Shown here in pieces: positions 20,543 through 27,075 of a stretch of DNA of 53,888 bases. The DNA comes from an uncultured Candidatus Saccharibacteria bacterium (lineage in GTDB: Bacteria > Patescibacteriota > Saccharimonadia > Saccharimonadales > 2-12-FULL-41-12). The notes under the pieces were generated by a model. That model was not told the DNA's origin. It did not search any database and saw nothing but the letters and a program-made list of their open reading frames with translations. Every line of letters begins with the position of its first letter. Within the stretch, counting starts at the first letter, position 1. The DNA is taken from NCBI GenBank assembly GCA_964521095.1, contig CAZFPJ010000002.1:215108-268995 (forward strand), in the 5' to 3' direction. A program made the position numbers and the translations under genes.

Positions 20543-21790
20543 ATGCTCAAACAGCTTGCCAAAAGGGTCGTAGTTGCATTGTTATGGCGTAGGGTTGAAT
20601 CTCTGTGTCGGAACAACGACATTAAAATTGTTGCGGTTGCCGGTAGTATTGGCAAAACCAGTACTAAAAGGGCCATCGCCCAGGTGCTCAGTCAGAAGTA
20701 CTCTGTTGCCTGGCAAGACGGAAACTATAACGATATCGTTAGTGTACCGTTAGTATTTTTTGGTCTAAATATGCCTTCTCTATTAAACCCGCTTGCTTGG
20801 CTAGTGGTGCTTATGAGAATGAGTTCAATGATCAGACACTATCCATACGAGGTAGTTGTGCTAGAGCTAGGTACAGATGCTCCAGGACAAATTGCAGAGT
20901 TTGGTAAGTATATAAAAGTCGATGTTGGAGTGATAACTCCAATCGCCCCAGAGCATATGGAGTTTTTTGAATCCATAAAAGCGGTAGCCAAAGAAGAACT
21001 TTCTTTACAGAAGTTTTCTAATAATATTATTGTCTATGACAAGACGCTAAGCAATTTTGCTAGTTTAGTAGAGCCTTCGGCTAAAAGTTACGGCCAGACA
21101 AAGTCCAGTACTTCATCAATAGATACTGTGTCTACCCCCATCGTCATAAAGACCGATCAACTGTCATATAGCTTTACTTCGTCGCTGTTAGGCAAGCATC
21201 AACTCGAGAATTTATCGGCCGTTTGTCTGGTTGCAGAGATGTTAAATCTAAGTCCCCAGCAGATTATCGATGGACTAGAATCTATAACGGCTATGCCTGG
21301 CAGGATGCAAAAGTTAGAGGGTATCAAAGGTTCAGTGATTATTGATGATACTTACAACTCTAGCCCCGAGGCAGTCAAGGCAGCCATCGAGTCCTTTTAT
21401 GAACTGCCTGGCACCAAAAAGATAGCAGTGCTTGGTAATATGAACGAGCTAGGCAGTACGGCCAAAGATGCTCATATCGAAGTTGGTAAGCTTTGTAGTC
21501 CAAAAAAAGTCGATCTAATCATAACGATTGGCCCAGACGCCAATGAATATGTAGCCAAGACCGCAGAAGCGCAGGGTTGTAAGGTTCTCAGATCGGACTC
21601 GCCATATGCAATCGGCAAGATTTTACTAGAAGAGGTCGCTAAAGATTCGTTAATTTTGTTAAAGGGATCTCAAAATGGTGTATTTTTGGAAGAAGCTATT
21701 AAACCAATTTTGGCTAACTCGGCAGATACAGATAAACTGGTTCGTCAAAGCAATAGCTGGCTTGCTAAGAAAAGAAAAATGTTCTCATAA
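20543..21790 (+). CDS. murF: Mur ligase family protein, MurF-like (UDP-MurNAc-tripeptide--D-Ala-D-Ala ligase)
   Basis: The P-loop is VAGSIGKTSTKRA, followed by GNYNDIVSVPL and the C-terminal-domain segment DDTYNSSPEAVKAAI. Confidence 0.7.
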   Translation: MLKQLAKRVVVALLWRRVESLCRNNDIKIVAVAGSIGKTSTKRAIAQVLSQKYSVAWQDGNYNDIVSVPLVFFGLNMPSLLNPLAWLVVLMRMSSMIRHYPYEVVVLELGTDAPGQIAEFGKYIKVDVGVITPIAPEHMEFFESIKAVAKEELSLQKFSNNIIVYDKTLSNFASLVEPSAKSYGQTKSSTSSIDTVSTPIVIKTDQLSYSFTSSLLGKHQLENLSAVCLVAEMLNLSPQQIIDGLESITAMPGRMQKLEGIKGSVIIDDTYNSSPEAVKAAIESFYELPGTKKIAVLGNMNELGSTAKDAHIEVGKLCSPKKVDLIITIGPDANEYVAKTAEAQGCKVLRSDSPYAIGKILLEEVAKDSLILLKGSQNGVFLEEAIKPILANSADTDKLVRQSNSWLAKKRKMFS

Positions 21791-21841: not shown

Positions 21842-24800
21842 ATGAAACGATACAATCCTAAAGATGCAGAGCCCAAATGGCAGAAAGCCTGGGCAGACAA
21901 GAAGCTGTACACAGCTGTAGATTTTGATGAACGGCCAAAGTTTGTCATGCTTACCGAGTTTCCGTATCCGTCTGGCGATGGCTTGCATCTAGGGCATGTC
22001 CGCGAATACACGCTGGGCGATATTATTGCTCGTAGACAACGCATGGCCGGCAAGAATGTGCTTTATCCAATGGGTTACGATGCTTTTGGCTTGCCGACAG
22101 AAAACTATGCAATAAAGAATAAAATTGCTCCGCAAGTTGCAACCGATCAGAATGTAGGTAATTTCCAAAAGCAGTTCGACAGTCTTGGCTACAGCATAGA
22201 CTGGGACAGGTCGTTTAGAACCACCGACCCAAGCTACTACAAATGGACGCAGTGGTTGTTTTTGCAGTTTTATAAGGCTGGGCTAGCCTATCAAGACGAG
22301 ATTGCTATAAACTGGTGCCCAAAATGCAAGACTGGTCTTGCTAACGAAGAGGTGGTGAATGGTCGGCACGAGCGATGCGACACCTTGGTAGAAAAAAAGT
22401 TCTTAAAACAGTGGATCCTAAAGATTACCGAGTACGCAGACCGTTTAATTGAAGGCCTGCAAACAGTCGATTACCCAAGCAGAATTGCCGACCAGCAAAT
22501 AAACTGGATCGGTCGTAGTGTTGGTGCAGAAGTAGATTTTGCTATCGATCAGGATTTGTCAGACAGAGAATTTGTTTTCTTTCATGGCAAAGGCTGGACT
22601 AAACAAGGGGCATTTTGGCCGTGGCTTAAGGGTCTGGTTGAAGAAAGAGGCGGCTCTGTGCAGATTCATAGCCTACCAAATACAGATAAGCCAAATATAG
22701 ACGAGCAAGTTGATTTTATTCTAAAAAATTATACCTTTAGTGACAAAACGACAATTGTTACTCACTCGCTTGGTGGTGTAGCCGCCATGAAGTTGTTGCC
22801 GATACTCCCTACAAAAATAGACAAGCTAATTATGGTAGCACCACCTCTGCGACCAGAATTTGTAGACGGCAAAGATCGTCCAGAGCTTGAGTCTTGCTGT
22901 GACTGGCAGTTTGACTTTGATGCTGTAAAGGCAAAAGCCAACGATATTATGGTGTTGCGTGATACAAATGATCATGTTGTCCCTCAAGATCATCCAGTTC
23001 AAATCGCGAGTAGACTGGAGGCTAGATTATTTGATTCTATTGGCAGTAAGCCACATTTTGATGGAACCAAAGAGCCGGCTGTACTGGAGCAGATAGTGCC
23101 GAGTATTAAAGTTTTTACAACTCGTCCAGATACGCTTTTTGGCGCAACTTATATGGTGCTCGCCCCAGAGCATCCACTAGTTTCTAGTTTAGTCCGTCCA
23201 GACACCAAAGAGGCTGTCGAAAAGTATATACAAGAATCTGCTGGCAAGACCGAGCTCGACAGGCAAGCCGACACAAAGGAAAAAACAGGCGTATTTACCG
23301 GGTCATATGCGATCAACCCAGTGAACGGCAAGAAACTTCCAATCTGGATTTCTGACTATGTACTTATGAGCTATGGTACGGGTGCCATTATGGCAGTACC
23401 AGCCCATGACGAACGGGACTTTGCCTTTGCCAAAGAATTTGACCTACCAATTAATGAAGTTATATCACCCTTCCTACCCAACAATGGTAAAAACGCGATG
23501 CGTCCAGGAATAGAAATTCTTAAGAGAGATGTCGTTGACGCTATTATCGTAAATGAAAATGGACAGTATCTTTTGATGGTAGAGCCCGATAACACACACT
23601 TCGTTGGGGGTGGCGTTGAGCCCGAAGATACAGACGATATTGAGGCTGTTAAACGAGAGGTCGTTGAAGAAACAGGCTATACAGATATTGAGAGTGTTCG
23701 CAAAGTTAGCTCTACTCTTATTACTGAAGGGTATCGCTTCACAAAAAATAAGAACCAACGGACCGTAGGTTGTTTTTATGAAGTGGTTTTGGCTTCTGAC
23801 AAGCAAATAAAGAGCGAGATCGACGAAGGCAAACACAAGATTAAATGGGTCTCAAAAGATGAAGTAGCTGAGTTGATTACTTGGGAAGGGCATGCATATG
23901 CTTGGGGCCAGTACTTAAATAATACGACTTGCTTTAGCGGCGAGGGGGTCATGATTAACTCTGGTGAGTATGATGGCTTGCCAAGCCAGGATTCACGGGA
24001 AAAGATTGTCGCAGATCTAGAAAAAGCTGGCAAGGGCGCAGAAAAAGTAAACTATAAGTTGCGAGATTGGGTGTTCAGTCGTCAGCATTATTGGGGTGAG
24101 CCAATCCCTATAATTCACTGCGACACAGACGGAGCAGTGCCCGTTCCTGAAGATCAGTTGCCAGTAGAGCTTCCACCAGTAGACCATTACGAGCCTACCG
24201 ACAACGGTGAGAGTCCGCTTGCAGATATCCAGTCCTGGGTTAATGTGGAGTGTCCAAAATGTGGCAAGCCGGCCAAGCGCGAAACGGACACTATGCCCAA
24301 CTGGGCCGGTAGTAGCTGGTATTACTTGCGTTATTACGATGCCCACAATGATAAAATTTTTGCCGGCCCTGAAAAGTTAAAATACTGGGGCGAGGTAGAT
24401 TTTTACTTAGGTGGTATGGAGCACACAACCCTGCACCTGCTTTATTCTCGGTTCTGGCATCAATTTTTGTACGACCAAAAACTTGTACCAACACCAGAGC
24501 CCTATGCGTCAAGGCGTGGGCAAGGGATTATCCTGGCCGAAGACGGCACCAAAATGAGTAAGAGTAAGGGTAATGTAATTAATCCAAACGACATCATTGC
24601 TCAGGGCTATGGGGCAGATTCTATCCGCCTGAGCATTGCATTTTTAGCGCCGTATGACCAAACAACTCCATGGAGTAGCGAAGGAGTAGCTGGAACTTTT
24701 CGGTTTATCCAAAGGTTATGGACACTAGTACAAGAATACCTCGAGAGTGACAAGCAAAAATATGAGCCCACCGAGCTCCGTCGGATAACTCACCGTGCAA

Positions 24801-25246
24801 TCCACAAAGTCTCTGACGACCTAGAAAAGCTAAACTTTAATACAGCTATCGCCTCTCTTATGCAGGCAACCAACGAGTTGTATAAGTTAAAAGCGAGCAA
24901 AGGTTTTAGTGAGGATTGGCAGGAAAGTCTGCTTGCCTTAGCTAAACTCCTAGCTCCTTTTGCCCCTCATATTACCGAGGAAATATGGCAAGAATTAGGC
25001 CAAAAAGGCTCGATCCATATCAGCCCTTGGCCAACCCATGACGCAAAATACCTAGAAGACGATCAAATTAATATCGTGATTCAAGTTAATGGCAAGCTAA
25101 GGACTACGGTGTTGGTTGATAAAAATGCCTCAGAAAACGAGATAGTAGAGCTAGCAAAAGCAGATCCAAAGGTTGCAGAACAAATAAAAAGCGGGGTAGT
25201 AAAAACTATTTACATACCCCACCGGTTGGTTAACTTCGTAGTTTAG
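21842..25246 (+). CDS. leuS: Leucine--tRNA ligase with two inserted domains (alpha/beta serine hydrolase and Nudix-like)
   Basis: The HIGH motif is GLHLGHV, CP1 is marked by TTRPDTLFGATY and GTGAIMAVPAHDERD, and KMSKS is TKMSKSKGN. At 1134 aa it is about 330 aa longer than the bacterial LeuRS I remember. Confidence 0.97.
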   Translation: MKRYNPKDAEPKWQKAWADKKLYTAVDFDERPKFVMLTEFPYPSGDGLHLGHVREYTLGDIIARRQRMAGKNVLYPMGYDAFGLPTENYAIKNKIAPQVATDQNVGNFQKQFDSLGYSIDWDRSFRTTDPSYYKWTQWLFLQFYKAGLAYQDEIAINWCPKCKTGLANEEVVNGRHERCDTLVEKKFLKQWILKITEYADRLIEGLQTVDYPSRIADQQINWIGRSVGAEVDFAIDQDLSDREFVFFHGKGWTKQGAFWPWLKGLVEERGGSVQIHSLPNTDKPNIDEQVDFILKNYTFSDKTTIVTHSLGGVAAMKLLPILPTKIDKLIMVAPPLRPEFVDGKDRPELESCCDWQFDFDAVKAKANDIMVLRDTNDHVVPQDHPVQIASRLEARLFDSIGSKPHFDGTKEPAVLEQIVPSIKVFTTRPDTLFGATYMVLAPEHPLVSSLVRPDTKEAVEKYIQESAGKTELDRQADTKEKTGVFTGSYAINPVNGKKLPIWISDYVLMSYGTGAIMAVPAHDERDFAFAKEFDLPINEVISPFLPNNGKNAMRPGIEILKRDVVDAIIVNENGQYLLMVEPDNTHFVGGGVEPEDTDDIEAVKREVVEETGYTDIESVRKVSSTLITEGYRFTKNKNQRTVGCFYEVVLASDKQIKSEIDEGKHKIKWVSKDEVAELITWEGHAYAWGQYLNNTTCFSGEGVMINSGEYDGLPSQDSREKIVADLEKAGKGAEKVNYKLRDWVFSRQHYWGEPIPIIHCDTDGAVPVPEDQLPVELPPVDHYEPTDNGESPLADIQSWVNVECPKCGKPAKRETDTMPNWAGSSWYYLRYYDAHNDKIFAGPEKLKYWGEVDFYLGGMEHTTLHLLYSRFWHQFLYDQKLVPTPEPYASRRGQGIILAEDGTKMSKSKGNVINPNDIIAQGYGADSIRLSIAFLAPYDQTTPWSSEGVAGTFRFIQRLWTLVQEYLESDKQKYEPTELRRITHRAIHKVSDDLEKLNFNTAIASLMQATNELYKLKASKGFSEDWQESLLALAKLLAPFAPHITEEIWQELGQKGSIHISPWPTHDAKYLEDDQINIVIQVNGKLRTTVLVDKNASENEIVELAKADPKVAEQIKSGVVKTIYIPHRLVNFVV

Positions 25247-26574: not shown

Positions 26575-27075
26575 ATGAAACGACCAAAACCTAACTTACC
26601 CGGTTTTAAAAAGTTTATACCTAGGCGGAAGCCAGCTATTAACGAAGTCGTCCGCGAGCCAACCAGCGGTGGTATGGTTTTTCGTCGTAACAAAAAGGGC
26701 GAGGTAGAGATATTACTGATTCAAGACGCCAAAGATCGTTGGACTATCCCAAAAGGGCATATCGAAGAGGGCGAAACCGCCAAAGAGACTGCCGAGCGCG
26801 AGATTCAGGAAGAAACCGGATTACAAGAAATGAATGTGTTAAATTGGCTTGGCAAGATTAACTTTAGATATCGCAGGGCTAACAGTCTAGTCCTGATGAC
26901 TACCGAAATTTTTTTGGTACATGCTAAAGGCGACACCGATAAACTAAAACCAGAAGATTGGATGAACGGCATTAAGTGGTTTAGCGCCAACGAAGCCCTG
27001 GACAAGATAGAATATGAAGATATTGGCAAGATAATATTGCTAGGACTTAAAAAAATACGGAGCAACGGGCTCTAG
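26575..27075 (+). CDS. NUDIX hydrolase
   Basis: The Nudix box reads GHIEEGETAKETAEREIQEETGL. Confidence 0.85.
   Translation: MKRPKPNLPGFKKFIPRRKPAINEVVREPTSGGMVFRRNKKGEVEILLIQDAKDRWTIPKGHIEEGETAKETAEREIQEETGLQEMNVLNWLGKINFRYRRANSLVLMTTEIFLVHAKGDTDKLKPEDWMNGIKWFSANEALDKIEYEDIGKIILLGLKKIRSNGL

What the first reader, a model, noticed from the sequence alone, without database searches (positions are those of the whole stretch)
22550..23101. A complete alpha/beta serine-hydrolase domain is inserted in-frame into LeuRS just before the CP1 editing domain
In the bacterial LeuRS I know (E. coli, from memory), only about 10 residues separate NWIGRS.G.E..F from the (V/T)TTRPDT start of CP1. Here about 185 residues (aa 237-420) intervene. 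They read as a whole YdeN/RBBP9-type serine hydrolase. The N-terminal segment is FVFFHGKGWTKQGAFWPWLK. The nucleophile elbow is THSLGG, with Ser309 at nt 22766-22768. The acid region is VLRDTNDHVVP and the His region is SKPHFDG. The reading frame is uninterrupted, and both flanks are colinear LeuRS sequence: GRSVGAEVDFAI upstream and SIKVFTTRPDTLFGATY downstream. An ester hydrolase sitting next to the aminoacyl-ester editing site could be an additional or alternative deacylase. I am not aware of such an architecture being described.
Basis: partly seen in the sequence, partly recalled or inferred. Interest (0 to 1): 0.8.

Follow-up and report, generated by a model that had tools for sequence, protein, structure and literature searches.

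The report
Active esterase nested inside LeuRS editing domain
The leucyl-tRNA synthetase of this Saccharibacterium carries a complete, apparently active small serine esterase (YdeN/RBBP9 type) spliced in-frame into a loop of its proofreading domain; this turns out to be a widespread, swappable and so far undescribed habit of ultra-small bacteria, whose purpose is still unknown.

Summary
Residues 236-420 of the 1134-aa LeuRS (window 21842-25246) form a complete YdeN/RBBP9-family serine hydrolase. It passes the Pfam PF06821 cut-off, matches YdeN by profile (E=2e-29) and by fold (TM 0.83, domain pLDDT 95). Ser309, Asp377, His405 and the His248-Gly249 oxyanion motif are intact.

It lies inside CP1, at the tip of the first beta-hairpin, five residues before the TTRPDT editing motif. 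It is not an assembly artefact: many independent assemblies carry it, in conserved synteny, and dN/dS is about 0.1.

- A NUDIX domain is nested in a second CP1 loop.
- The hydrolase behaves as an exchangeable cassette. LeuRS 95% identical exist with and without it, and LeuRS 90% identical carry modules only 34% identical.
- The same module, triad intact, sits at CP1 junctions of IleRS and ValRS, in AlaRS, UvrA, UvrB, SecA, TsaD, Der and Fmt, and free-standing, across Patescibacteria and DPANN-labelled genomes.

CP1 editing motifs remain intact. The "extra deacylase" idea is therefore plausible chemically (RBBP9 cleaves alpha-aminoacyl bonds) but unproven, and the non-tRNA hosts weaken it. I found no paper describing this architecture.

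The parts
21842..25246 (+). leuS: bacterial-type leucyl-tRNA synthetase, 1134 aa, the host protein. HIGH motif = HLGH at aa 49-52; KMSKS at aa 904-908.
   Evidence: ORF. TIGR00396 scores 971 bits against a cut-off of 548. The full-length model matches T. thermophilus, E. coli and N. gonorrhoeae LeuRS structures at E down to 1e-72.
22487..22546 (+). First beta-strand of the CP1 editing domain (aa ~216-235, ...NWIGRSVGAEVDFAI). This is the N-terminal arm of the hairpin that carries the insert.
   Evidence: PF13603 profile positions 1-21 lie here in LeuRS without the insert (P0141, P0185). It aligns to T. thermophilus LeuRS 207-237. The model has a strand at 225-235.
22547..23101 (+). Nested YdeN/RBBP9-type serine hydrolase module (aa 236-420). 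It has no lid and an alpha/beta hydrolase fold.
   Evidence: PF06821 scores 27.4 bits, above the cut-off of 22. The profile matches YdeN at E=2e-29. Domain model: pLDDT 95.1, TM 0.83 to 1uxo. dN/dS is 0.096 between two close homologues (L001 vs L002) and about 0.095, with saturated dS, for the window against L001.
22583..22588 (+). His248-Gly249, the oxyanion-hole HG motif of the hydrolase.
   Evidence: His is invariant in the 17 LeuRS inserts and is present in 151 of 153 non-truncated modules.
22766..22768 (+). Ser309 (TCG), the nucleophile in T-H-S-L-G-G (GxSxG elbow).
   Evidence: Codon checked. Invariant in the 17 inserts and present in 158 of 159 modules from all hosts. It aligns to RBBP9 Ser75.
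22970..22972 (+). Asp377, the catalytic acid (NDHVVP).
   Evidence: It aligns to RBBP9 Asp138. The position is Asp or Glu in 154 of 159 modules.
23054..23056 (+). His405, the catalytic base (KPHFDG).
   Evidence: Invariant in the 17 inserts and present in 151 of 153 non-truncated modules. It aligns to RBBP9 His165.
23102..23482 (+). Body of the CP1 editing domain (aa 421-547). The editing site is intact: T426, T427, D430, T431 (TTRPDT, nt 23117-23134) and D523, R525, D526 (AHDERD, nt 23402-23419).
   Evidence: PF13603 scores 208 bits, aa 421-543 = profile 22-142. These residues are invariant in 56 Saccharibacterial LeuRS. They align to T. thermophilus T247/T248/T252 and D344/D347.
23483..23923 (+). 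Second nested enzyme: a NUDIX hydrolase domain (aa ~548-694; Nudix box at aa 589-613, nt 23606-23680). It replaces the CP1 loop that corresponds to T. thermophilus 364-376.
   Evidence: PF00293 scores 50.6 bits against a cut-off of 21.1, aa 561-684. The model pLDDT is 87-96 in the 10-residue blocks spanning this stretch. Loop mapping is and the box position.
23924..24046 (+). C-terminal part of CP1 (aa ~695-735), which returns to the Rossmann fold.
   Evidence: leuS_bact profile resumes at position 366 at aa 695. It aligns to T. thermophilus 377-419.

Best explanation
The segment is an independently folding, catalytically competent YdeN/RBBP9-family serine hydrolase. It has no lid; its triad is Ser309-Asp377-His405 and its oxyanion motif is His248-Gly249. 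It is nested at the tip of the first beta-hairpin of the LeuRS CP1 editing domain, giving three levels of nesting: Rossmann fold > CP1 > hydrolase.

It is one item of a set of small-enzyme 'cargo' modules (YdeN-type hydrolase, NUDIX, GNAT, HAD, LMW phosphatase). Patescibacteria and DPANN-labelled genomes carry these in permissive loops of large housekeeping proteins, above all at the CP1 junctions of the class Ia synthetases LeuRS, IleRS and ValRS. The modules are gained, lost and swapped like cassettes between closely related genes.

How it most likely works: LeuRS keeps its own synthetic and CP1 editing sites. The module works as a separate hydrolytic site on small, water-soluble esters or amides, by family precedent probably alpha-aminoacyl esters or amides. 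It is expressed stoichiometrically with LeuRS and held within roughly 20-25 A of the editing pocket.

Shown: identity, fold, intact catalytic residues, purifying selection, insertion point, cassette behaviour and host range. Inferred: that it is active, its substrate class, and that LeuRS is mainly a permissive carrier rather than a functional partner.
For: Identity and fold.

Catalytic residues are conserved in 17 LeuRS inserts and in 159 modules from all hosts.

Purifying selection: dN/dS is 0.096 for the module against 0.036 for the LeuRS core.

Insertion point: hairpin strands at 225-235 and 421-426, linkers of 7 and 2 residues, and junction pLDDT of 88-90. It maps to T. thermophilus loop 238-241.

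Real, orthologous gene: the synteny Mur ligase-leuS-small ORF-NusB-NUDIX-RNase III-S16 is conserved in four other assemblies, covering the plain form and the hydrolase form.

Cassette behaviour: L002 (with module) and L004 (without) are 95.5% identical in the core. The window and L005 are 89.7% identical in the core but only 33.9% in the module. At least three module subfamilies occupy the same LeuRS site, and free-standing and nested forms are intermixed.

Other cargo in the same loops: NUDIX, GNAT, HAD, LMWPc and an IS200 Y1 transposase domain.

Other hosts: ValRS, AlaRS, IleRS, UvrA, UvrB, SecA, TsaD, Der, Fmt and Ham1, plus about half of the top 150 hits free-standing at about 180 aa.

CP1 editing motifs are equally conserved with and without the module.

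Family chemistry: YdeN has no lid and its relative ML-005 is a short-chain esterase (PMC6119806). RBBP9 cleaves N-terminal aminoacyl amides and needs a free alpha-amine (PMC8866121). RBBP9 is also reported as a valacyclovir (L-valyl ester) activating enzyme (Shenoy 2020, known here only from its title in the reference list of PMC7730578).
Against: No activity has been measured.

The host distribution is strongly skewed to class Ia editing synthetases and, within them, to the two CP1 junction loops. About 60 of roughly 75 nested hits are in LeuRS, and all 80 of the best species-level loci are in LeuRS or IleRS. This is more than a purely passive 'any permissive loop' model predicts. However, both searches were seeded with LeuRS-derived modules and are biased.

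One genome (L068) has a divergent free-standing copy (29% identity) next to a leuS that also carries a nested module. The nested copy there is therefore not simply the relocated single-copy gene.

I could not obtain model coordinates, so the orientation of the triad relative to the CP1 pocket is unknown. The full-length pTM is only 0.66.
Confidence: 0.55

Rival explanations
1. Functional coupling. The module is a second hydrolytic proofreading or detoxifying site that serves the synthetase. It would deacylate mischarged or otherwise unwanted aminoacyl-tRNA 3' ends. Alternatively it would cleave aminoacyl-nucleotide compounds, either mis-activated adenylates or natural aminoacyl-adenylate-mimic antibiotics that target LeuRS and IleRS. 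The NUDIX and GNAT cargo would then act on the same class of molecules.
For: The module's last helix ends 8 residues before the T-rich editing motif.

The same enzyme family was recruited repeatedly to CP1 junctions of three paralogous editing synthetases. In LeuRS it sits at the pre- and post-CP1 loops. In IleRS it ends at ileS profile position 215. In ValRS it lies between valS profile positions 332 and 461.

Several module subfamilies occupy the same LeuRS site. AlaRS, Fmt and TsaD, which also bind tRNA or aminoacyl/adenylate-type substrates, are among the other hosts.

RBBP9 hydrolyses alpha-aminoacyl bonds and requires a free alpha-amine (PMC8866121). A divergent free-standing paralogue coexists with a nested copy in L068.
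Against: Hosts unrelated to tRNA or aminoacyl chemistry exist: UvrA, UvrB, SecA, Der and Ham1.

Unrelated cargo, including a transposase domain, sits in the same loops.

LeuRS 95.5% identical in the core exist with and without the module, so it is dispensable for LeuRS function.

CP1 editing residues are fully retained, so there is no obvious gap to fill.

The RBBP9 alpha-amine anchor (Glu108) has no clear counterpart in the profile alignment.

To my knowledge no alpha/beta-hydrolase is known as an aminoacyl-tRNA deacylase.
Confidence: 0.3
2. Selfish or mobile insertion. The module is a parasitic DNA or protein element, intein-like or transposon-borne. It persists because it sits in an essential gene, not because its activity is useful.
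For: It shows presence/absence polymorphism and cassette swapping among close relatives. It has many unrelated essential hosts. An IS200-type transposase domain sits in-frame in the same LeuRS region in P0181.
Against: The window LeuRS has no Hint/intein or endonuclease family hit, and the junctions show no intein-type residues. There are no flanking direct or inverted repeats and no GC step. Purifying selection is strong and the catalytic residues are almost universally retained, which is not expected if the enzyme activity were irrelevant. Free-standing homologues are ordinary genes.
Confidence: 0.07
3. Non-catalytic appendage. The fold is retained as a structural, tRNA-binding or regulatory domain of LeuRS, and the triad is vestigial.
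For: Alpha/beta-hydrolase folds are sometimes reused as receptors; D14/KAI2 are among the weaker fold matches. A few post-CP1 LeuRS modules have F, Y or A at the acid position.
Against: Ser, His and the HG oxyanion motif are conserved in about 99% of modules at pairwise identities as low as about 30%. The window copy has all four elements.
Confidence: 0.05
4. Artefact: a chimeric assembly or a disrupted gene.
For: None beyond the unusual length of the protein.
Against: The exact protein was seen on 2 contigs. Homologues with the same architecture come from NCBI, JGI, ENA and Logan assemblies. Eighty species-level genomes carry it. Synteny is conserved. The frame is uninterrupted and under purifying selection. 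The model is confident across both junctions.
Confidence: 0.01

Closest known systems
B. subtilis YdeN (PDB 1uxo) and the Pfam PF06821 / COG3545 'Ser_hydrolase' family
   Same: It has the same lid-less alpha/beta-hydrolase fold of about 185 aa (TM 0.83). The profile match covers the full length at E=2e-29. It has the same GxSxG nucleophile, Asp and His. Free-standing Patescibacterial homologues are about 50% identical to the nested modules.
   Different: YdeN and its known relatives are free-standing proteins. Here the domain is nested in-frame inside another enzyme's inserted domain. The physiological substrate of YdeN is itself unknown; its relative ML-005 is a short-chain esterase (PMC6119806).
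Human RBBP9 (PDB 2qs9, 7oex, 9fcr)
   Same: Fold match at TM about 0.8 and profile match at E=1e-17, with Ser75/Asp138/His165 aligned to Ser309/Asp377/His405. RBBP9 cleaves alpha-aminoacyl amides and needs a free alpha-amine (PMC8866121). It is reported to activate the L-valyl ester prodrug valacyclovir (title cited in PMC7730578). That bond type is the same as in aminoacyl-tRNA.
   Different: Sequence identity is only about 20%. The RBBP9 amine-anchoring residues (Glu108, Tyr99, Ser76) are not clearly conserved in the alignment. RBBP9 is eukaryotic and free-standing. No link to tRNA is known.
Canonical bacterial LeuRS with its CP1 editing domain (T. thermophilus 1h3n/2bte, E. coli 4aq7/4arc)
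   Same: The host is an orthodox bacterial LeuRS with HIGH and KMSKS motifs, the CP1 T-rich motif and the conserved Asp.
   Different: CP1 itself hosts two further enzymes, a hydrolase at loop 238-241 and a NUDIX domain at loop 364-376 (T. thermophilus numbering). This adds about 330 residues. A 2026 survey of domain insertions reports the LeuRS editing domain (PF13603) as insertion-only, with no instance of acting as a host (PMC13114784).
Synthetases with extra catalytic domains already recognised in annotation, e.g. NCBIfam NF040702 'isoleucine--tRNA ligase, N-acetyltransferase domain-containing'
   Same: A class Ia synthetase carries an unrelated small enzyme in-frame. GNAT-bearing LeuRS with the hydrolase also exist (P0196).
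   Different: The cargo is a different enzyme family. The window LeuRS scores far below that model's cut-off (72 bits against 1999). I found no curated model or paper for the hydrolase-bearing architecture.
Free-standing trans-editing deacylases (YbaK/ProXp, AlaXp, DTD)
   Same: If the coupled reading is right, the job would be the same: hydrolysis of an aminoacyl ester on tRNA outside the synthetic site.
   Different: The fold and catalytic mechanism are unrelated, since those proteins are not Ser-Asp-His alpha/beta hydrolases. Pfam and NCBIfam found no such family in this protein. Action on tRNA is unproven here.

Membership tests
YdeN/RBBP9 serine hydrolases (Pfam PF06821) | Significant match to the family profile above the curated cut-off | tested here: met
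   PF06821 scores 27.4 bits against a cut-off of 22, aa 279-407. A profile of 17 inserts matches YdeN at E=2e-29 and RBBP9 at E=1e-17, both over the full length.
YdeN/RBBP9 serine hydrolases (Pfam PF06821) | Compact lid-less alpha/beta-hydrolase fold of about 180-190 residues | tested here: met
   The domain model has pLDDT 95.1. Its best PDB matches are 1uxo (TM 0.83) and RBBP9 (TM 0.78-0.82), at E about 1e-13 against 1e-7 for the next family.
YdeN/RBBP9 serine hydrolases (Pfam PF06821) | Ser (GxSxG) - Asp - His triad plus the HG oxyanion motif, conserved in homologues | tested here: met
   Ser309, Asp377, His405 and His248-Gly249 are present. Across 159 modules: Ser 158/159, Asp or Glu 154/159, His 151/153. 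They align to RBBP9 S75/D138/H165.
YdeN/RBBP9 serine hydrolases (Pfam PF06821) | Hydrolase activity that depends on the nucleophilic serine | not testable with these tools
   This needs recombinant protein, esterase or amidase assays, fluorophosphonate labelling and an S309A control.
RBBP9-type alpha-aminoacyl hydrolases specifically | Acidic residue that anchors the substrate's free alpha-amine (RBBP9 Glu108) | tested here: inconclusive
   In the profile alignment Glu108 falls in a loop of different length, opposite a non-acidic consensus position. Acidic residues are conserved nearby (E in the xEPxF / RPEF and PFE motifs). No coordinates were available for a superposition.
Bacterial leucyl-tRNA synthetase (TIGR00396) | Equivalog model above cut-off, HIGH and KMSKS motifs, and a CP1 with the T-rich motif and conserved Asp | tested here: met
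   971 bits against a cut-off of 548. HLGH at aa 49-52 and KMSKS at aa 904-908. TTRPDT at 426-431 and AHDERD at 521-526 are invariant in 56 relatives and align to T. thermophilus T247/T248/T252 and D344/D347.
Known aminoacyl-tRNA trans-editing families (YbaK/ProXp, AlaXp/tRNA_SAD, DTD) | Homology to one of those folds | tested here: not met
   Pfam and NCBIfam scans of the whole protein gave no hit to any of these families. The insert's fold is an alpha/beta hydrolase.
Inteins | Hint domain with splice-junction residues (Cys/Ser/Thr at the N-junction, His-Asn + Cys/Ser/Thr at the C-junction) | tested here: not met
   There is no Hint or endonuclease family hit. The junctions read ...DFAI|DQDL... 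and ...IVPS|IKVF..., with no His-Asn. The whole insert is accounted for by the hydrolase fold.

The most novel reading that the evidence does not exclude
In Patescibacteria and DPANN-labelled genomes, the CP1 domain of class Ia synthetases (LeuRS, IleRS, ValRS) would serve as a docking platform for cassette-exchangeable accessory enzymes that act on aminoacyl-ester or aminoacyl-nucleotide chemistry at the synthetase. The YdeN/RBBP9-type module would then be a new, alpha/beta-hydrolase class of aminoacyl-tRNA deacylase, or a detoxifier of aminoacyl-adenylate mimics. The NUDIX and GNAT cargo would serve the same end, for example as on-target protection against the LeuRS and IleRS inhibitors made by the symbionts' actinobacterial hosts.
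Probability: 0.2. Interest if true: 0.85.

Novelty: new variant of a known kind. Interest (0 to 1): 0.65.

Why it matters
Aminoacyl-tRNA synthetases are textbook examples of modular enzymes, and CP1 is the classic inserted editing module. Here CP1 is itself a host, which contradicts a recent survey (PMC13114784). The cargo consists of complete, selected, apparently active enzymes that are swapped between near-identical genes.

If the cargo acts on synthetase-related substrates, it would be a new proofreading or self-protection mechanism and a new fold for aminoacyl-ester hydrolysis.

If it does not, the finding documents a general and undescribed way in which ultra-small symbionts (CPR, possibly DPANN) package accessory enzymes inside essential proteins. 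Hosts include LeuRS, IleRS up to 1762 aa, ValRS, AlaRS, UvrA/B, SecA, TsaD, Der and Fmt. That has practical consequences:
- Genome annotation: these enzymes are invisible as genes.
- Marker-gene phylogenies that use these proteins.
- Estimates of the metabolic repertoire of these organisms.

Tried and rejected
1. The word-index homologue search with the domain alone returned nothing. This was a limit of the tool. The full-length search and the exhaustive profile search found hundreds of relatives.

A 6-sequence subset worked, but its patterns bias the result towards one module subfamily.

3. Mobile-element signature: there are no meaningful direct or inverted repeats at the module boundaries and no GC step. 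Rejected.

4. Intein: there is no Hint domain and no splice-junction residues. Rejected.

5. 'The hydrolase compensates for a degenerate CP1': rejected, because the CP1 motifs are equally conserved with and without the module.

6. 'The nested copy is just the relocated single free-standing gene': weakened by L068, where a copy only 29% identical sits 1 kb upstream of a module-bearing leuS. No second copy lies in the 54-kb window.

7. Distance and orientation of the triad relative to the CP1 pocket: not obtainable, because model coordinates are not exposed to scripts. I give only a tether-length estimate from secondary structure.

8. Literature: nine accepted searches were run (a tenth query was rejected for syntax). 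Six of them looked for this architecture or related nested-domain synthetases and found no description. The library does not hold most subscription journals.
Full report
**1. Observation**

The window holds one uninterrupted ORF, 21842..25246 (+), of 1134 aa. It is an orthodox bacterial LeuRS:
- TIGR00396 scores 971 bits against a cut-off of 548.
- HLGH lies at aa 49-52 and KMSKS at aa 904-908.
- The full-length model has pLDDT 84.8 and matches T. thermophilus, E. coli and N. gonorrhoeae LeuRS structures at E down to 1e-72.

Typical relatives are about 810 aa. The excess comes from two insertions, not one. Pfam finds Ser_hydrolase PF06821 at aa 279-407 (27.4 bits, cut-off 22) and NUDIX PF00293 at aa 561-684 (50.6 bits, cut-off 21.1). 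These split the LeuRS editing-domain model PF13603, whose positions 22-142 match aa 421-543.

The codon at 22766-22768 is TCG = Ser309, and 22550-23101 correspond to aa 237-420.

**2. What the insert is**

I aligned the inserts of 17 homologous LeuRS, which are 27-73% identical to the window's. His13, Ser74, Gly76 and His170 are invariant in that alignment; these are His248, Ser309, Gly311 and His405 of LeuRS.

The profile of this alignment matches B. subtilis YdeN (1uxo) at E=2e-29 over its whole length. It matches human RBBP9 at E=1e-17, with RBBP9 Ser75/Asp138/His165 aligned to Ser309/Asp377/His405.

Folded alone, the domain gives pLDDT 95.1 and pTM 0.92. Its best PDB matches are YdeN (TM 0.83) and RBBP9 (TM about 0.8) at E about 1e-13. 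The next family (D14/KAI2) is at 1e-7.

**3. Where it sits**

Against T. thermophilus LeuRS, the hydrolase replaces the 4-residue loop 238-241, between ...FPVE237 and R242-IPVFTTRPDT. The NUDIX domain replaces loop 364-376. Both sites lie within the editing domain: the hydrolase splits the Pfam CP1 model PF13603 between profile positions 21 and 22, and the NUDIX interrupts it near position 142. From memory, not tested here, the T. thermophilus editing domain spans roughly residues 224-417.

In the full-length model, the hairpin strands at 225-235 and 421-426 are kept. The hydrolase emerges from the hairpin tip through linkers of 7 and 2 residues, and the junctions are confident (pLDDT 88-90). 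Its last helix ends at aa 418, and the editing threonines are T426, T427 and T431. The module is therefore tethered within about 8 residues of the editing pocket, which I estimate from tether length as no more than about 25 A.

I could not read coordinates, so the orientation of the triad is unknown. The full-length pTM is 0.66.

**4. It is real and under selection**

- The exact protein occurs on 2 contigs.
- Among the 120 best homologues, all labelled Saccharibacteria, Saccharimonadales or Patescibacteria, four architectures occur: plain (about 810 aa), +NUDIX (about 960 aa, the commonest), +hydrolase (about 988 aa) and both (1132-1180 aa). Seventeen of the 120 carry the hydrolase.
- Four related loci share the synteny Mur ligase-(Ddl)-leuS-small ORF-NusB-free NUDIX-RNase III-S16. 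This is therefore the single orthologous leuS.
- Between L001 and L002, dN/dS is 0.096 in the module, against 0.036 in the LeuRS core and 0.072 in CP1.
- There is no GC step and no flanking repeats.

**5. Cassette behaviour**

L002 (with the module) and L004 (without) are 95.5% identical in the core and 95% in CP1. In the plain form the hairpin loop reads ENSAE.

The window's closest backbone, L005, is 89.7% identical in the core. Its module at exactly the same site is only 33.9% identical and belongs to another subfamily. P0060 carries yet another subfamily, whose nearest relatives are free-standing proteins and the UvrB and Ham1 modules.

The NUDIX domain is likewise present in the window but absent from its four closest relatives.

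**6. Host range**

An exhaustive profile search of 1.84 billion representative proteins gave 3956 hits at E<=1e-3 and 106 at E<=1e-30. Among the best 150, about half are free-standing proteins of about 180 aa and about 60 are LeuRS. The remainder, examined with Pfam and NCBIfam, include:
- LeuRS with the module in the second CP1 loop (P0141, P0185), or behind a NUDIX domain (P0166).
- LeuRS with GNAT plus hydrolase (P0196), with HAD (P0152), and with an in-frame IS200-type Y1 transposase domain (P0181).
- ValRS (P0174), where the module lies between valS profile positions 332 and 461.
- AlaRS (P0158), UvrB (P0212), UvrA (P0195), SecA (P0150), TsaD (P0175), Der (P0192), Fmt (P0199) and Ham1 (P0191).
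- A Peptidase_S51 fusion (P0200).

A pattern scan of one genome per GTDB species confirmed 103 loci. The best 80 lie in about 65 LeuRS and 15 IleRS. The IleRS are from oral Saccharibacteria (Nanosynbacter), are up to 1762 aa, and carry LMW phosphatase + NUDIX + one or two hydrolase modules that end at ileS profile position 215, the start of CP1.

The organisms named are:
- Patescibacteria: Saccharibacteria, Sungiibacteriota, Berkel-, Uhr-, Magasanik-, Doudna-, Levyi-, Curtiss-, Pacei-, Taylor- and Kerfeldbacteria.
- MAGs labelled Nano-, Woese- and Pacearchaeota.

Across 159 modules from all hosts, Ser is kept in 158/159, His in 151/153, the acid (Asp or Glu) in 154/159, and the oxyanion-motif His (His248) in 151/153.

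**7. Interpretation**

Shown: a complete, selected, catalytically intact hydrolase, nested in CP1 and exchanged like a cassette.

The CP1 editing motifs (TTxxDT, xHDxRD) are as conserved in module-bearing LeuRS as in the others. The module therefore does not replace a lost editing site.

Family chemistry gives a lead:
- YdeN has no lid and is thought to act on soluble esters. Its relative ML-005 is a short-chain esterase (PMC6119806).
- RBBP9 removes N-terminal amino acids and needs a free alpha-amine (PMC8866121).
- RBBP9 is reported as a valacyclovir-activating enzyme (title in the reference list of PMC7730578).

An alpha-aminoacyl ester is therefore a credible substrate, and that is what an aminoacyl-tRNA end is.

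Against a synthetase-specific role:
- The module is dispensable among near-identical LeuRS.
- Unrelated cargo, including a transposase domain, occupies the same loops.
- Hosts such as UvrA, UvrB, SecA and Der have nothing to do with aminoacyl esters.

For a synthetase-specific role:
- Hosts are heavily skewed to class Ia editing synthetases.
- The same family was recruited repeatedly to CP1 junctions in three paralogues.
- tRNA-related hosts are also found (AlaRS, Fmt, TsaD).
- A divergent free-standing copy coexists with a nested one in L068.

Both of my surveys were seeded with LeuRS modules, so the skew is not yet a clean statistic.

I therefore rank the explanations as follows:
- Autonomous accessory hydrolase carried in a permissive CP1 loop: 0.55.
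- Functionally coupled deacylase or detoxifier: 0.30.
- Selfish element: 0.07.
- Non-catalytic appendage: 0.05.
- Artefact: 0.01.

**8. Novelty**

Nine accepted full-text searches were run; six of them targeted this architecture or related nested-domain synthetases and found no description of it. NCBI has a model for a GNAT-bearing IleRS (NF040702, seen), so cargo-bearing class Ia synthetases are known at the annotation level. A 2026 survey states that the LeuRS editing domain never acts as a host (PMC13114784), and these proteins contradict that.

I class the finding as a new variant of a known kind: a domain-inserted synthetase and a new context for the YdeN/RBBP9 family. The broader nested-cargo phenomenon is the more interesting result.

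Noticed in passing
window 23483-23923 (aa ~548-694; Nudix box at 23606-23680): A second complete enzyme, a NUDIX hydrolase domain with an intact REx2EExGU box, is nested in another CP1 loop (T. thermophilus 364-376). It is the commonest LeuRS insert among Saccharibacteria (about 960-aa forms). It is absent from the window's four closest relatives.
   Followed up: partly
window 26575-27075: A free-standing 166-aa NUDIX gene lies two genes downstream of leuS, after NusB. It is conserved in synteny in the related loci L002, L004 and L005. The genome therefore has both a nested and a separate NUDIX enzyme near leuS.
   Followed up: no
L019:2354-7639, L022:2438-7057, L028:2804-6895, L054:3242-6877 (oral Saccharibacteria / Nanosynbacter): Isoleucyl-tRNA synthetases of 1212-1762 aa carry an LMW phosphotyrosine-phosphatase-like domain, a NUDIX domain and one or two tandem YdeN-type hydrolase modules at the start of CP1.
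   Followed up: partly
P0181 (998 aa LeuRS, aa 269-374): An IS200-type Y1 transposase domain (PF01797, 52.8 bits) lies in-frame in the pre-CP1 loop of a LeuRS. The same protein carries the hydrolase in the post-CP1 loop. This suggests the loops accept mobile DNA.
   Followed up: no
P0212, P0195, P0150, P0175, P0192, P0199, P0158, P0174: The same hydrolase module, with its triad intact, is nested in UvrB, UvrA, SecA, TsaD, Der/EngA, Fmt, AlaRS and ValRS.
   Followed up: partly
L017, L020, L026, L044, L053, L068, L076, L081: MAGs labelled Nanoarchaeota, Woesearchaeota, Pacearchaeota or 'archaeon' encode LeuRS whose N-terminal part is 44-51% identical to the Saccharibacterial enzyme and which carry the same module at the same site. 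This points either to transfer between CPR and DPANN or to mis-binning. Several MAGs labelled 'uncultured Gammaproteobacteria' show the same thing and look mislabelled.
   Followed up: no
L068:1678-2244 and L068:3221-6256: A free-standing 189-aa YdeN-type gene lies 1 kb upstream of a leuS that also carries a nested module. The two are only 29% identical.
   Followed up: yes
P0021, P0054 and a few others (LeuRS CP1 motifs): A minority of LeuRS, mostly module-bearing (6 of 7), have TTAHDT instead of TTRPDT; GEDxRD/GQDERD variants of AHDERD are similarly concentrated in module-bearing LeuRS (6 of 7). The threonines and aspartates are kept.
   Followed up: partly
window 20543-21790 vs L001/L004 2075-2975: In the window and in L005, the Mur-ligase gene directly abuts leuS. 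In L001 and L004 a D-Ala-D-Ala ligase gene lies between them. This fits the window's LeuRS backbone being closest to L005.
   Followed up: no
P0121 (350 aa), P0187 (1169 aa): Tandem duplications of the hydrolase module exist, both as a free-standing two-domain protein and within LeuRS.
   Followed up: no
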